A stretch of 64,000 nt of DNA from Raja brachyura (lineage: Eukaryota), in assembly GCA_963514005.1 (NCBI GenBank), contig OY740807.1, positions 18,724,001 through 18,788,000 of the forward strand, written 5' to 3'. Both the position numbers and the translations under genes were made by a program. Under the pieces are notes generated by a model. It searched no databases and was not told the origin of the DNA. It saw only the letters and a list, made by a program, of their open reading frames with translations. Of the stretch, positions 2,679-40,771 are shown piece by piece (within the stretch, counting starts at the first letter, position 1; each line of letters starts with the position of its first letter).

Positions 2679-2835
2679 CATCGGGTGAATTACATGAATG
2701 TCCCAGTGGCCCCATGTTCATTGTAACAGAAGTCAACTGCTCAAAATCACAATGCCTGCTTGTGGGAACAAATCAATCCCTGTCATTGTCCTTCCCCTTT
2801 GATCCAGCTGACTAACTATGCCTCAGTCACAAAAC

Positions 2836-2889
2836 GGGGTGGGAGATTGCAACCTTCGCGTGGCCCGCCCTGTTTCGACTAATGCAATC
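2836..2889 (+). ncRNA. Minimal HDV/CPEB3-like self-cleaving ribozyme (predicted)
   Basis: P1 GGGGTGG/CCGCCCT, P2 GATTGCA/TGCAATC, P3 ACC/GGC, L3 TTCGCGT, P1.1 partner GT, J4/2 CTAA with putative catalytic C at 2879. Confidence 0.75.
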
Positions 2890-2972
2890 AACTCGACGTG
2901 CACAAACGGAAGATCAAATAGAACAAGTTGTCCAACAACTTTAGGCTGTGCACGCCACACAAAAGAAGAAGT
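2836..2972 (+). mobile_element. Short non-autonomous retroelement with 5' HDV-like ribozyme and (GAA)n tail, copy 1
   Basis: Perfect 11-bp TSD agtcacaaaac at 2825-2835 and 2973-2983; homologous copies at 19754-19861 and 40636-40771. Confidence 0.85.
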
Positions 2973-3705
2973 AGTCACAAAACATCCTCAATGAATTCCC
3001 TTCAGAGAAACAATTTCAATGTGCCCAGAAAATCACTTGCCTAGTTAGTGTCGGGGGCGATTCTTGCAAATCCTGCTTCCACGTTTCATCCTGCATGAGC
3101 CGTGAATTGAAAAAGTCTTTGATGCGCAACACAATAACTGGGTTAGCTCGACCTCTCAGAGGTGACAGCCTGTCCCCTCTCTCAGATCATCTGCATTTTC
3201 CTGCCGTCATAAGCTATGCTTTGAACTTTCAGTGAGGGATATTTATTCCTTCATCTAGAAATGTTATTGATTTAAAAAAAAACCCTGCATCTGCCAACTT
3301 TTCCATTATAAATGTACACATCTACATTTAAGACAGCAGCTGCCCAAGTAAACCAGATTATCAAACACCTCCACATTTTTTTTCAGCACCCTCCCTTCAC
3401 CAGACTGAATACAGAGGTAGACTTCTCCCTGAATCCTGTTCATTCCTTTACCACATAATCTCTGTTCCTCCGTGGCTCACATCTCTTCACTTTCGACCAT
3501 TATCTTGCACATTGGCACCGACTTCTACTTCAGCGCTTTTTTCTTGTTGGAAGCCTTGACTTGAGACGCCTTTTCAACTCAGTTTTTTAACCTGTGGAAT
3601 TCTCCCTGCTTTGCTCCTTGCTTGCTACATAAATGTTTAACACGGCTAAGCAAGGCGCACCATCGACCTGATGTCTTTGTTCCTCTCCTTTTGCAACCTT
3701 CTATT

Positions 3706-14550: not shown

Positions 14551-15742
14551 CCACTGGGATACTGTCAGGGCTGGTGTGCATTGTCCGACATCCCAATGGT
14601 CTGCAGTAGTTTATCAGTCACACCGTTTTTTCCTGTCTGCTCTATCTATAAATATAGAGGAATATGCAGAGGAAGTAATACACCACAGTTCTTTAATCTA
14701 ATGAAAAGATGAATAGACAAGTACATACAAGCAATGTGTAGGAAGGAACTGCATATGATGCTTTACACCAAAGATAGACACAAACTGCTGGAGTAACTCA
14801 GTGGAACAGGCAGCATCTCTGCATAGAAGAAATGGGTGACATTTCGGGTTGAGATCATCATCTCTGAACCTCTCCAGTGTCTTTAAAATGTTGTAATTGT
14901 ACCTGCTTCAACCACTTCCTCTAGCAGATTGTGCAAAGGACAATAGTGGGCAAACACATGGGCAGGGCCAGATCGGGGAGACGCGAGAGGATCCACTGGT
15001 CAGGCTGGCAGATGGGCAGAGGCTGACTGTTGCCGTAGTTTTCATCACCTGCTTCTCTTCGATACTTGAACTGCACATCGGTCCTATGGAGGCCACGGTT
15101 TCTGACATCTCCCTTCCTACCCAGCATAACCACAACTAGACTCGAGTCAACAGCCATTCTGTACATCTAGCAGGGAAGGTGCATACACAGAGATACACGC
15201 CTGATTTTTACGCAAATCTGATCAGCAACAAAATACATTTGCGTTGGAAATTTGTGTTGGAGCAAGAGATACAAGTTGTTGTACATTAAATACGACCAAG
15301 GTATCGGAGAGGGTAACCAGGAAGGCTGTGCCTGGGATGTACACAAAGGCAGTTAATAGCCATTGGTCATCCATTTTCCTGCAGCTTTCCTGTTGCAGCA
15401 TTATTACATCCACATTTCTCCACCACGCTACTTGCATGGAGCCCGGTTACTACTGTGTAACACATGGATTGCAGAGCTGCAGTCTCCCACAACTCATGCG
15501 CCAGGCATTCTGGTTCAACCCCAATCTCAGGTGCTGTCTGTGTGGAGTTCGCATGTTCCCCATGTTAGTTTTCTCCCGCCCCCCGCCCCCCCCCCCCCCA
15601 CTAAGTCTAGACATGGGGGTTTGCAGGTTATTGGCCTCTGTAAAGTGCCCCTGGTGTGCAAGGAATGGATGCAAACGTTGGTAACAGAGCTAGTGTGAAC
15701 GGGATGGTTGATGTGGGCTGAAGGGCCTGTATCTTTCAATCA

Positions 15743-16203
15743 CTCCCTGCATGGACACACAGCACCTCCACCCCGACTGAAATCCAGAGCCAGTTTCTTG
15801 CAGACAGTCGCACCTCTCCAGACAACCAAAGAAACAGCAAGGACCAACATCTGGAAAGATGAATGGAACCAGCTCAGACGCGCCCATGACTGGATGGAGA
15901 GAGGAATCACTCCGACTGAACGCCTCGCCAGCGGGCAGGACCTCCCATGGCCAACCTGGAAGACCCTCAACAGATTACAAGTGGAGCAGGGGAGGTACAA
16001 AGCACTTCTGAAAGCATGGAACTACCAGGCAGAAGACACATGCAGCTGTGGAGCAGTACAGACAATGTCCCACCTACTGGAGTGTGACAACGCCCCCCAG
16101 AGCAGCCCCCAGGACCTGGCTGAACCGACCCGACCAGCTGTGACCTGCGCCAGATACTGGCAGAACGACATCTGAGATTGCAACGGACCCGAAGAAGAAG
16201 AAG
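15743..16203 (+). mobile_element. Ingi/Vingi-like (possibly RTE-X) LINE 3' fragment with (GAA)n tail
   Basis: Open frame with RLKSR..., W.TLNRL...GR, zinc knuckle CSCG..QTMSHLLEC, stop at 16175, short UTR, gaagaagaagaag tail; sits in the tail of a SINE (15485-15742) with possible aatca TSD. Clade name is from motif recall. Confidence 0.7.
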
Positions 16204-18253: not shown

Positions 18254-19753
18254 TATTTCATTGTTTAACCTGACTCGAGCATTACAGAAAATAATGATTC
18301 GGGTTTGTGATTCGGTGGCAAGGAATGCACCGGCCTCAACTCGCTTGAAAACTGAGCATTTCCTGCGTTAGTCTCATGACAACAAGCAGAGGAATGATTG
18401 CCTAGAAACAGCTATTTTCCCAACACTTGTTCACTGAAACAAATGATCTAATAGCATAGCGATGAGAATAACATAACGATCAGAAACCAGGGATGGAGGG
18501 GAAATATGGAGTAAAAACCACCAGGGCAGTTTAAAATACAAGGCCTATTCGCACCATCTCACTCCTGGCAACTCGATGCGGTGCGGACAGAGTGGCCGAC
18601 GGCAACAGAGCCGCCGCAGGTGAGGGTGGGAGGTGTGAGCGGTGCCTGGAGGGGGCGGGGGGGTCGGTGCTGGGACCACCGCCGCGTCCCACCTATCACA
18701 CCATCTGCACGGGAATGTGAATGCGGGTTAGGCAGCATCTATAGAGTGGTGGACAAAAATGCTGGAGAAATGCTTGAGTCTGAAAAAGGGCCAAACTCAG
18801 ACATAGATGCTGCCTCACCCGCTGAGTTTCTCCAGCATGGTTGTCTACATTACCATTTTAAATAGTGTGTGATGGGCTTAAGCCAATTAAATTGCTCGTT
18901 CTTTATGGGGAACCCGACGACAAAAAAAACGATTCTCATTGGTGAGTGTGACTTTATTTATTTATTCATATTTCTTTTTTTGAGCGTGAGAACTTCTGTC
19001 ATCTGCATGAGAGCGTGAGAATTTCCTCAAATGCATTAGTCTCACGCTCAATGCGCGAGATTTGGCAGCCCTGAAAATAACAGGTGGACAATGCAAGGTG
19101 GACATGAATGACGGATAGGTCACTGAGAAGTGCCAAGTGCCAAACACGGCACCTTTGGGGCTTTTACTTAAACTATTACAAATGTTTAACTGGCAGGTAC
19201 ACAAACATCATAAGGTGCAATAAAGTCATTGGATAGCATTCGGGAGCAGGAAGCCGATTAATTTCTCTCCCAGATTTCCCCCAGGCATGAATGGGATTGT
19301 TTAAGTGTTACACACACTGAAGGCATGGAGTTCCCCATTGTCCAGGGAACGCTGCTCATTTACATTCTGCTGCTTGCATCAGCACGTCTGCAAAGGTGCA
19401 GGGACACCCACTTAAGCTCAAGTTCTCTGGGCTCAGTCCCAAGTGCCATAGACACACTGGTCAAACCTGCTTTGGTTTCTGTGGTGGAGCCTTTGTTGCT
19501 CTGCTCACATCAAAACTGGAGCAGGCCCAGAAAGACAAATCCAACATGATGGAGAGAGGTAGCCACCTCCCTGAGTAATGCCTTTGGTTGAAGACCCACT
19601 CCATGGGTTCTGAGCACCTAATCTTAGCCAATTGGCTCTCTTCCAATTTTCATACCAATTCAGGCCTCGGGGAGTACAGGCTGGTCCAATTGTGGTGGCA
19701 AAGTCCTGCGAGTGCTAGAGGCCTCAGGAGCTAGGACTGCGCCAGTAGAATGG

Positions 19754-19861
19754 TCTTCTTCAGCCTAACGTTGTAGGCCGACTTGTTCTATTTGATCTTA
19801 TTTGATTGTGCGCATTCGTCGAAACAGGCCGGACCACGTGAAGGTTGCAATCTTCCACCCC
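19754..19861 (-). mobile_element. HDV-ribozyme-headed short retroelement, copy 2 (internally deleted)
   Basis: Minus strand GGGGTGG AA GATTGCA ACC TTCACGT GGT CCGGCCT GT TTCGA CGAA TGC..., then shared gatcaaatagaacaagt...ttaggctgaagaaga; no TSD seen. Confidence 0.8.
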
Positions 19862-21040
19862 GCTAAGAGGGTGAACCGGGGTAAAGCCTCCAGCGCTTTC
19901 AAGGTAGGTTGGAGGATGTGCCCCCAGGACACAAGGTGACCGGGCATGGAGAGGGAGGGGTGGCAGTTAGCGGGAACTGCTCCAGTACATCGAGCGGGCG
20001 GGCAGGAGTTCGGACTTGAAGAATGGCGCCAAAAATGGCAGCACCCGCATGTGTAATATATGCAAAAGGAATTTCACTGTGCAGTTGCAAATGTGACAAA
20101 TCAAGCACTATTGACTCCAATTGAAGCTCTTGCTGAAGATCCAGTGATGACAGTGTTCATCGACGGTCTGTGGCCATCCCATCATCTGCACTGGGACTTG
20201 TGGTTACTCATAACACAAGGTGGACAAGAGATTCTGCTGGGCTCAACCCCATATTTACACTTGGGCACGGATGGTCCACAAGTCTTAGCTTCCGGTCTTC
20301 CATTACCTTAGGATCAAGATGCCCTTCTATCAATTGATGCTTGAGGCACCAATATTCCCCGTACCCACTCCACCCAGACAAAGGTCTGATCACCGCGCCA
20401 ATCCTTGATCCAGCCGCGCGCCCTAGCCCGGTCGTAGGTCCCGCCCACCGCTCCTGGCCGCATCCCCCAATTACCTGCTCGCCCCCCAGGCTCCCATCAT
20501 GTCTGCCACCACCGTGCCAGCAAACAGTCTCCAACCTTCACCCACCCTGCCCTTGCCCCAGTCCCTATGGAAACGCCCACATACATTGCAGGCTAGGACT
20601 CGCCGATCATGCCCGTACATGGAGCAGGATGCCTGAAAGATCACAATGAACTTATTCAACCAACACAATGATGCAGAGACTGCCAATATTTCGAACGGCA
20701 CTTAAACAAACAAATTGTCGCAAAGTGGGTGTGGCGGGCGAGGTGTTGCCAGTAAATATCCCTTCTCTCTCTCGCTCCACTTCCTCCTCTGCTGCCAAGT
20801 TACTGGCTGGCTTGTTCCATTGACTTTTTTAAATGCAGCTTTCAAGGCCAGAATCTCAGTACATCAACTCCCACTTACTCCCAGACCTTGGGTTTAGAAA
20901 ACCAAACTGCTAAAAATAGTGGACTGTAAACAAAACACATTTTGTCTGCAGCAGTAGAATGGAACAAACATTCTCTGCACACACTCTCTTTCCATCTTAG
21001 TGGGTGCCAACTAATGCTGTGCAACCTCTCCACAGACCGG

Positions 21041-39885: not shown

Positions 39886-40635
39886 ATAACATGACATCGC
39901 TATCACTCGTCCTGTGTGGGGAACAGGCAGGAAATGAATGTGCAAACTGCTTGGGCTCTGACTTAGCCAAAATATTTTCAAGTGCAAGAGTTGTCTGTCA
40001 AAGAGGCAACGTTACTGCGAGGGGTTTCTTGCCGGTTTGTCAACAGGACATGAATGGAGTAGTGACAGTAACAGTGAGCTGATAAAGAAACGCCAGGGGA
40101 GAGCATGCACAGGGCAGAGCTTCCTATTTGTACACAGATGCGCCCAATATCAGACGGCAATCACCAATCAGTCCTTCTCTGGGGTGGATGGGGGCGAGGG
40201 GGGGGGGGAAGGGAGCAAGGAGAGGGCGGTGGCAGCGTAAAAACAAGACTTAACAGATGGTGGATCTCGCTCTCAGAAATAACTCGAGTGAAGCCTGCAA
40301 AGGAAGAATGCGAGCAGTGCCAGTGCAGGCAATGATCCGCTATCGCACCTCCCCATCTACAGACTACAGCTGCATCAAGTCATTAACAGAAGTGAAAGAT
40401 AACAATAGCATTTACTGTGCAGAAGTGCCGCCTCTGGGCTCTTGAATTTTACAATGCTAAACAGCTCAACCTCTTGTTTTTGGACATGTGTTTACCCAAG
40501 TTAAAATGATCGCTATCACAGCGCAAGAAGGCAGCGTTGTGACCTCCACCAGGTCTCCCGTTACCAGCGTAACCGGTGAAGGGTCCAGGCCTGAAACATT
40601 GGGCATCCATTTCCTCCACAGATGCTGCCCGATCT

Positions 40636-40771
40636 TCTTCTTCTTTCGTGTGGCTTGCACAGCCTAAAGTTGTTGGACAACTTGTTCTATTTGATCTTCT
40701 GTTTGTGCACGTCGAGTTGATTGCATTGGTGGAAACAGGGCGGACCACGTGAAGGTTGCAATCTTCCACCC
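40636..40771 (-). mobile_element. HDV-ribozyme-headed short retroelement, copy 3, nested in a Penelope-like fragment (~40575-40845)
   Basis: 12-bp TSD gctgcccgatct / gctgcctgatct (11/12); minus strand GGGTGG AA GATTGCA ACC TTCACGT GGT CCGCCCT GT TTCCA CCAA TGCAATC ... gaaagaagaaga. Confidence 0.85.
40719..40771 (-). ncRNA. Minimal HDV/CPEB3-like ribozyme (predicted; first P1 G absent)
   Basis: Perfect P2 and P3, L3 TTCACGT, J4/2 CCAA; same strand as the SERCA pre-mRNA. Confidence 0.7.

What the first reader, a model, noticed from the sequence alone, without database searches (positions are those of the whole stretch)
2836..2889. Minimal P4-less HDV/CPEB3-like ribozyme heading a short repeat family (three copies)
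Seen: the first 54 nt of the repeat parse into every element of the HDV nested double pseudoknot in the right order. P1 GGGGTGG pairs with CCGCCCT (7 bp, first pair G.U). P2 GATTGCA pairs perfectly with TGCAATC. P3 is ACC/GGT (GGC in this copy), L3 is TTC(A/G)CGT, then GT, a 5-nt loop TTCGA in place of P4, and J4/2 C-N-A-A. Across the three copies J4/2 reads CTAA, CGAA and CCAA, so only the position that is unconstrained in HDV ribozymes varies while the catalytic C and both As are kept. Established: L3 UUCACGU, a one-pair P1.1 with GU, and CGAA are the mammalian CPEB3 ribozyme arrangement; HDV-like ribozymes process the 5' ends of R2, RTE and Ingi/L1Tc retrotransposons. Inference: this is a compact, CPEB3-like ribozyme family spread by retrotransposition in a cartilaginous fish, possibly undescribed and possibly relevant to the origin of the CPEB3 ribozyme.
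Basis: partly seen in the sequence, partly recalled or inferred. Interest (0 to 1): 0.9.

Follow-up and report, generated by a model that had tools for sequence, protein, structure and literature searches.

The report
Minimal ribozyme heading a Vingi retroposon
A 137-base jumping element with over ten thousand copies in this vertebrate genome begins with a stripped-down RNA fold that likely cuts itself free from host transcripts, and related jumping genes carry near letter-for-letter matches to the mammalian CPEB3 ribozyme, which would point to where that ribozyme came from.

Summary
Real, and larger than three copies. Window 2836-2972 is a 137-nt non-autonomous retroposon (11-bp target duplication, GAA tail) with at least 10,735 genomic copies. 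It is an internal-deletion derivative of a 3.1-kb single-ORF LINE of Vingi architecture found here, which carries the same 5' 54 nt. That head parses as an HDV-like double pseudoknot, numbered like CPEB3 over positions 1-38, with a 5-nt loop in place of P4. Copies start at the predicted cleavage site G1. Related LINEs from other organisms carry the same fold with compensatory stem changes and a P4. Cleavage is untested, and this copy is probably impaired by two rare changes. The family scores nothing on Rfam CPEB3. Sister Vingi-type LINEs, in this genome and in a metagenome contig, do (up to 65.8 bits; 35 of 38 letters), which suggests the mammalian CPEB3 ribozyme is an exapted LINE 5' end. 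Ribozyme-headed deleted LINEs (NARTc, R2 SIDE) and P4-less ribozymes (phage) are known separately; ten paper searches did not show this combination, but four key papers and Repbase/Dfam were unavailable. No related earlier scan finding. New variant; interest 0.72.

The parts
2825..2835 (+). 5' target-site duplication (11 bp), ending directly before G1
   Evidence: identical to 2973-2983
2836..2972 (+). whole short internally deleted element, 137 nt
   Evidence: contigs of four public runs lose their match at 2836 and about 2971
2836..2889 (+). predicted P4-less HDV-like ribozyme; predicted cleavage between 2835 and 2836
2836..2842 (+). P1 5' strand (pairs with 2865-2871); G1.U36 wobble; pair 5 is U.G in most short copies and U-A in 7 of 7 LINE 5' ends examined
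2845..2851 (+). P2 5' strand (pairs with 2883-2889)
2852..2864 (+). P3 and L3 with U20, C22, G25; this copy carries rare variants at 2858 (2 of 71 copies) and 2864 (3 of 71; breaks the first P3 pair)
2872..2878 (+). G37 (P1.1 partner of C22), U38, and the 5-nt loop that replaces P4
   Evidence: the competing 2-bp hairpin costs +2.0 kcal/mol, pair probability 0.03
2879..2882 (+). J4/2 with the predicted catalytic C2879 (C in 67 of 71 copies)
2890..2907 (+). rest of the part shared with the LINE 5' UTR (element positions 1-72 match LINE 5' ends at 86-92%)
2935..2972 (+). part shared with the LINE 3' end: last codons, stop codon at 2942-2944, very short 3' UTR and GAA tail
2973..2983 (+). 3' target-site duplication
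40634..40771 (-). second copy, 93% identical, lacks G1
19750..19863 (-). third copy, other subfamily, P1 mismatch, P2 3' strand and 3' end partly deleted

Best explanation
The finding is the 5' head of a high-copy, internally deleted derivative of a Vingi-type LINE, and that head is predicted to fold as an HDV-like ribozyme without P4 that likely cuts the element's RNA out of host read-through transcripts at G1. Shown: the element joins the LINE's 5' 72 nt to its 3' 38 nt, has target-site duplications and a GAA tail, starts at G1, and shares the head with the autonomous LINE. Inferred: Mg2+-dependent cleavage before G1 with C44 as general acid gives a defined 5' end; the LINE's endonuclease/reverse transcriptase binds the shared 3' end and copies the RNA by target-primed reverse transcription; because the ribozyme lies 3' of the cut, each full-length copy inherits it. 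The window copy is an old, antisense intronic insertion and probably cleaves poorly or not at all.
For: Copy number 10,735 (core 21-mer, reversed control 0), 9,490 (3' 20-mer), 1,320 exact intact 54-mers. Of 89 copies picked by the 3' end alone, 74 reach the ribozyme, 12 are truncated or other, 3 are LINE 3' ends. In 71 non-duplicate copies G1 is kept in 64 and flanks upstream are unconserved; of 31 copies with a duplication of 10 nt or more, 21 end directly before G1 and 5 overlap it by one base. The two columns with a major second letter are J1/2 position 8 and J4/2 position 45, both unpaired; position 32 switches U.G to U-A, while the next 48 nt hold several subfamily differences. The partner LINE: RT, relatives of about 1,000 aa with endonuclease plus RT and no PF00075 among 120 listed, a full-length 3.1-kb copy L327, and the same P4-less head in 7 of 7 LINE 5' ends fetched. 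Four independent relatives among 80 metagenome loci carry a clean HDV fold on the sense strand 157-384 nt before the ORF match, with changes on both sides at 13 of 17 stem pairs relative to this family; in L279 and L272 the target duplication ends one base before G1. P4-less HDV-like ribozymes cleave in vitro (PMC10879173, passages); L1Tc/NARTc and R2 SIDEs are the mechanistic precedent (PMC3383444; PMC3414825 abstract).
Against: No cleavage or transcription was observed; public runs were contigs only. A 5' boundary at G1 is also what an internal promoter starting at +1 would give (Pr77 precedent). The four relatives were chosen by a descriptor that demands pairing, so 85 of 85 paired cells is by construction; only their position and letter differences are evidence. 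Within the genome no two-sided compensatory change was seen, and only 28 of 71 copies keep all features. All four clean relatives keep P4. Only one P1.1 pair, a 2-nt J1/2 and no P4 may make the fold marginal. Rfam does not score the element. The name Vingi rests on architecture; no labelled Vingi sequence was in the tree.
Confidence: 0.78

Rival explanations
1. The head is a relic: P4 loss crippled the ribozyme, and the 5' end is set by an internal promoter in the same 54-72 nt, with the fold kept only for RNA stability or protein binding.
For: L1Tc's first 77 nt are both promoter and ribozyme; the HDV fold can protect 5' ends in R2 templates (PMC13708176 passage); all four clean relatives keep P4; no activity data here.
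Against: G1.U36, U20, C22-G37, G25, C44 and the two As persisted through at least three subfamily waves while unpaired positions 8 and 45 changed; a second family in this genome has the same P4-less junction length on a different core and also amplified; P4-less phage ribozymes are active.
Confidence: 0.17
2. An ordinary small-RNA-headed SINE whose first 54 nt only look like an HDV fold.
For: Short length, high copy number, target duplications and microsatellite tail are SINE-like; Rfam and MFE folding do not flag the head.
Against: No tRNA or Rfam small-RNA match; the head is the 5' end of the autonomous LINE itself; 0 descriptor hits in 200 shuffles; homologous folds sit at the 5' ends of related LINEs.
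Confidence: 0.02
3. The ribozyme has been co-opted at this locus to regulate the host calcium-pump gene, as proposed for CPEB3.
For: All three copies lie in introns of a SERCA-type gene.
Against: The flagged copy is antisense to the gene and probably misfolds; the two sense copies are broken; about one core match per 250 kb genome-wide makes intronic copies expected.
Confidence: 0.03

Closest known systems
NARTc/L1Tc and RIME/ingi of trypanosomes (PMC3383444, passages)
   Same: Short non-autonomous element sharing a 5' HDV-like ribozyme and a 3' end of about 30-40 nt with an Ingi-related LINE; cleavage site at +1.
   Different: Vertebrate host; partner LINE lacks RNase H; ribozyme is 54 nt without P4 against 77 nt with P4; over 10,000 copies; promoter activity untested.
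R2 SIDEs (PMC3414825, abstract)
   Same: 5' ribozyme joined to the 3' end of the parent LINE by internal deletion and mobilised in trans.
   Different: Not rDNA-specific; APE-type, not R2-type, partner; dispersed and abundant.
Minimal P4-less HDV-like ribozymes, drz-Mtgn and theta (PMC10879173, passages and section 7)
   Same: No P4; first J4/2 base is the catalytic C; short L4 and J1/2.
   Different: Nearly 99% of those are in Caudoviricetes phages and none was reported from the eukaryote set searched (human, mouse, protists); this one heads an animal retrotransposon and has a CPEB3-type single P1.1 pair.
Mammalian CPEB3 ribozyme (Rfam RF00622; PMC4836649 and PMC8233481, passages)
   Same: Identical spacing over positions 1-38, G1.U36, U20/G25, C22-G37, U21/U38, L3 letters, C-N-A-A.
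   Different: No P4; different stem letters; no Rfam score; mobile and multicopy. Sister LINE families, not this one, match CPEB3 by letter.
Vingi LINEs and their bipartite non-autonomous derivatives (PMC5786205 and PMC13708176, passages)
   Same: Compact single ORF, APE endonuclease plus RT, no RNase H, internal-deletion derivatives.
   Different: The 2018 list of ribozyme-bearing clades (R1, R2, R4, RTE, Ingi, LOA) omits Vingi; no labelled Vingi reference could be compared here.

Membership tests
HDV-like ribozyme | Nested double pseudoknot order P1-J1/2-P2-P3-L3-P3'-P1'-P1.1-(P4)-J4/2-P2' with 6-7 bp P1, about 7 bp P2, 3 bp P3 | tested here: met
   first P3 pair broken in the window copy, intact in 63 of 71 copies
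HDV-like ribozyme | Core letters G1.U/C, U20, G25, C22-G37, catalytic C, J4/2 adenines | tested here: met
   G1 64, U20 69, C22 71, G25 62, G37 68, C44 67, A47 70 of 71; features from PMC4836649 and PMC6326823 passages
HDV-like ribozyme | Compensatory change in stems among homologues | tested here: met
   13 of 17 pairs change on both sides across five lineages; relatives were pre-selected for pairing, and none of this is seen within the genome's own family
HDV-like ribozyme | Mg2+-dependent self-cleavage before G1, lost in the C-to-U mutant | not testable with these tools
   needs in vitro assay
Minimal (P4-less) HDV-like ribozyme | P4 replaced by a short loop | tested here: met
   5-nt loop in the short family and in 7 of 7 LINE 5' ends
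Theta ribozyme | Phage genome, cleavage site at a tRNA 3' end | tested here: not met
   vertebrate intron, no tRNA
CPEB3 ribozyme (RF00622) | Score above 35 bits on the Rfam model | tested here: not met
   no match at E<=10; sister families score up to 65.8
Short internally deleted LINE derivative (SIDE/NARTc type) | 5' and 3' termini shared with an autonomous LINE, no ORF, target-site duplications | tested here: met
Vingi clade (partner LINE) | Single ORF of about 1,000 aa, APE plus RT, no RNase H, about 3 kb | tested here: met
   definition from PMC13708176 passage
Vingi clade (partner LINE) | RT groups with named Vingi elements apart from Ingi | tested here: inconclusive
   tree of 29 rows has no labelled Vingi or Ingi sequence
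tRNA-, 5S- or 7SL-headed SINE | Head derived from a small RNA gene | tested here: not met
   head is the LINE's own 5' end

The most novel reading that the evidence does not exclude
Vingi-type LINEs as a clade carry HDV-like ribozymes at their 5' ends; this vertebrate genome holds at least five such families, two of them P4-less and giving thousands of intact 52-54-nt ribozymes, the first in an animal; and the mammalian CPEB3 ribozyme is the exapted 5' end of one such LINE or its short derivative that landed in the CPEB3 intron before placentals and marsupials split.
Probability: 0.55. Interest if true: 0.85.

Novelty: new variant of a known kind. Interest (0 to 1): 0.72.

Why it matters
If active, this is a natural P4-less HDV-like ribozyme in an animal genome, where such minimal forms were reported almost only from gut phages, and it comes as a ready-made mutational series of over 10,000 copies. 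It adds Vingi, a LINE clade now used for gene writing (PMC13708176), to the ribozyme-headed retrotransposons, which bears on 5' UTR design of such templates. Above all, it makes the origin of the CPEB3 ribozyme directly testable: sister LINEs match it in the letters of P1, P2, P3 and, in one family, P4, which are normally free to vary. Thousands of intronic self-cleaving sites would also predict a measurable depletion of intact sense-strand copies in genes.

Tried and rejected
Rfam on the window and on 2815-2900: no ribozyme match at the element. MFE folding: z -0.69 and -0.97, uninformative for a pseudoknot. MAFFT alignment of six ribozymes misplaces J4/2 because P4 lengths differ, so helices were compared by position in a script. 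Viral contigs: no relative. Prokaryote genomes: 10 fragments, not analysed for 5' ends. Descriptor hits in L259, L292, L302 and L323 have long linkers or mismatches and lie away from a LINE 5' end; treated as chance. Most of the 80 metagenome loci lack the LINE 5' end, and several that reach it show no clean fold, so clade-wide presence is not shown. No target duplication found for the full-length copy L327. Public runs: contigs only, RNA status mostly guessed; no evidence on transcription or cleavage. Cluster look-up gave no element names. A GU-UUCG-AC hairpin that would hide G37 and C44 was considered and is unfavourable. The two sense-strand window copies being broken is anecdotal, since 43 of 71 copies are imperfect anyway. 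Earlier scan findings: four unrelated phage notes by sequence, none by words or place. Papers not held: Ruminski 2011, Webb 2009, Webb and Luptak 2011, Kojima 2011; Riccitelli 2014 seen only as cited by others.

Full report
OBSERVATION. The spacing equals that of the CPEB3 ribozyme over positions 1-38: G1.U36, U20, G25, C22-G37, U21/U38 (features from passages of PMC4836649). Five nucleotides then lead to C44 (window 2879), where CPEB3 has P4. A descriptor of the HDV fold finds only this site in the window and none in 200 shuffles (written after seeing the site). Rfam does not match the element. The other two window copies are damaged: one lacks G1, the other has lost most of P2.

THE ELEMENT. 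It runs 2836-2972 between 11-bp target duplications and ends in a GAA tail. The genome holds 10,735 exact matches to a core 21-mer, 9,490 to a 3' 20-mer and 1,320 to one intact 54-mer. To avoid selecting for the ribozyme I took copies by the 3' end: of the first 100 places listed, 89 were examined (11 in one tandem cluster left out); 74 reach the ribozyme, 12 are truncated or other, 3 are LINE ends. After dropping 3 segmental duplicates, 71 remain. Homology starts at G1, and 21 of 31 duplications of 10 nt or more end directly before it. The strongly polymorphic columns are 8 (J1/2) and 45 (J4/2 N), and they track subfamilies; column 4 has a second letter in 7 of 71 and the CpG columns show ordinary decay. 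Only 28 of 71 copies keep every feature, as expected of neutral decay after insertion. Subfamilies are 3.9% and 6.3% from their column majorities. Contigs of four public runs show the same boundaries and the same common variants at 2867 and 2880, and show that the window's letters at 2858 and 2864 are the rare ones. These two changes favour a competing fold (-17.7 against -9.9 kcal/mol for P1+P3), whereas in an intact copy P1+P3 is within 0.2 kcal/mol of the minimum. All three window copies sit in introns of a SERCA-type gene on the minus strand; the flagged one is antisense.

THE PARTNER. A pattern asking for the 3' end with a different upstream sequence (306 matches) led to a truncated LINE (L081) and then to its family (715 candidates). 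The ORF's stop codon lies inside the shared 3' segment. It encodes an RT; its relatives are proteins of about 1,000 aa with endonuclease and RT domains, the best 69% identical, and none of 120 listed has PF00075. That is the Vingi architecture as described in PMC13708176 (passage); the name is not confirmed by a labelled tree. LINE 5' ends are rare (39 matches). Seven fetched all begin with the same P4-less head, with a Watson-Crick U-A at P1 pair 5, and L327 is full length at 3.1 kb. The window element shares positions 1-72 with the LINE 5' end and 100-137 with its 3' end. An older short subfamily joins the whole 5' UTR to the 3' end at the start codon. So this is a SIDE/NARTc-type derivative, and P4 was already missing in the LINE.

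OUTSIDE EVIDENCE. Among 80 metagenome loci of related LINEs, clean HDV folds lie just upstream of the ORF in four independent ones (L250, L258, L272, L279 with its duplicates L280 and L281). All keep P4. Thirteen of 17 stem pairs differ on both sides from this family in at least one relative; L258 is the closest, 30 of 38 letters. Because the descriptor required pairing, the pairing rate itself is not evidence; position, strand and letter changes are. In L279 and L272 the target duplication ends one base before G1.

THE CPEB3 LINK. L279, a full-length LINE with a 14-bp duplication, scores 55.6 bits on Rfam CPEB3 (cut-off 35) and matches the consensus at 35 of the first 38 letters, counted. The differences are position 9, a change tolerated in CPEB3 (PMC8233481 passage), and 21 with 38, which together make a second P1.1 pair. 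In the window's own genome RF00622 gives 58 matches among 59 candidates scored, 32 over the cut-off, best 65.8. I examined 27 of the 32: all fall into four further repeat families. Three keep P4 (11, 5 and 5 copies); one copy, L351, runs into a nearly full LINE ORF with tail and an imperfect duplication, and one family has a P4 stem nearly identical to CPEB3's. The fourth (6 copies; 369 exact 20-mer matches) is a second P4-less short element with a 6-bp P1 and a 5-nt loop. In an RT tree the CPEB3-lettered LINEs group together (92/84) inside a 100/98 clade apart from the partner of our element (decayed copies have long branches; L354 left out for lack of coverage). Stem letters are free to vary in HDV-like ribozymes, so this identity points to common descent; an exapted LINE 5' end is the simplest reading but is inferred, and mammalian flanks were not examined. 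From memory, a sea urchin ribozyme (drz-Spur-3) also resembles CPEB3 closely; this is recalled, not checked, and may mean part of the link is already in print.

MECHANISM. Shown: structure of the element, boundary at G1, shared ends, conserved core. Inferred from L1Tc, R2 and HDV biochemistry: read-through transcript, self-cleavage before G1 with C44 as general acid, recognition of the 3' end by the LINE protein, target-primed reverse transcription. I put activity of intact copies at about 0.75. The main rival is an internal promoter with a relic fold.

LITERATURE. Ten full-text searches listed no paper whose title or abstract reports a ribozyme in Vingi, a P4-less ribozyme in an animal, or a LINE origin of the CPEB3 ribozyme. 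Seen as passages: PMC5786205 (lists six ribozyme-bearing clades without Vingi; four clades make bipartite derivatives), PMC13708176, PMC6765202, PMC13635239, PMC6326823, PMC8233481 (no occurrence of 'origin' or 'retrotranspos'), PMC8256844 (HDV-like ribozymes in lamprey, lancelet, sea urchin; spread by retrotransposition suggested), PMC3383444, PMC4908430, PMC5753468 (human genome has a Vingi trace, X12_LINE), PMC4836649; passages and one section: PMC10879173; abstract: PMC3414825. Not held: Webb 2009, Ruminski 2011, Webb and Luptak 2011, Kojima 2011; their text or supplements, Repbase, Dfam or patents could already hold these sequences. No supplements were read.

VERDICT. Real feature; new variant of a known kind; interest 0.72, mostly for the first animal P4-less case and the testable CPEB3 origin.

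Noticed in passing
L279:3617-3689 (same locus in L280, L281): 5' ribozyme of a full-length Vingi-like LINE with 14-bp target duplication; 55.6 bits on Rfam CPEB3, 35 of 38 letters as the mammalian consensus, different P4.
   Followed up: yes
L341-L350, L351-L358, L364-L367 (G000): Three further repeat families whose 5' ribozymes keep P4 and pass the Rfam CPEB3 cut-off; L351 continues into a LINE ORF, L342 is a short derivative with target duplication, L344/L346 have a P4 stem nearly identical to CPEB3's.
   Followed up: partly
L359-L363, L368, L369-L398 (G000): Second P4-less short retroposon (about 150-175 nt, GAA tail, target duplications, 369 exact 20-mer matches) with a CPEB3-type core, 6-bp P1 and a 5-nt loop almost the same as this family's; its autonomous partner was not sought.
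   Followed up: partly
L245, about 420-550: LINE 5' end that parses by eye as an HDV-like fold with a long hairpin inserted in L3; resembles the 5' end of Vingi-1_Acar as recalled, not checked.
   Followed up: no
window 2897-2904 and 2947-2954: An 8-bp complement between the LINE-derived 5' UTR part and the 3' UTR; the core hexamer is a palindrome present at both ends of the autonomous LINE too, perhaps a protein-binding motif or a 5'-3' pairing.
   Followed up: no
window 1402-54618, minus strand: Exons of a SERCA-type calcium ATPase gene; the flagged copy is antisense, the two sense copies are both broken.
   Followed up: partly
L123:2802-2937: A young short copy inserted into the 5' coding region of an older copy of its own partner LINE.
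   Followed up: no
L068, L121, L148, L344, L346: Several LINE copies have the ribozyme-bearing 5' end inverted against the body, as in twin-priming insertions.
   Followed up: no
G000 C1 14.79-14.95 Mb: Copies recur at regular spacing of roughly 8-30 kb, suggesting a tandem segmental duplication.
   Followed up: no
position -1 of 71 copies: The base before G1 is mostly a pyrimidine (T 32, C 20, G 12, A 7), a possible insertion or junction bias.
   Followed up: no
window 15699-16172: Open frame with a C-terminal-like motif of another non-LTR element; not examined.
   Followed up: no
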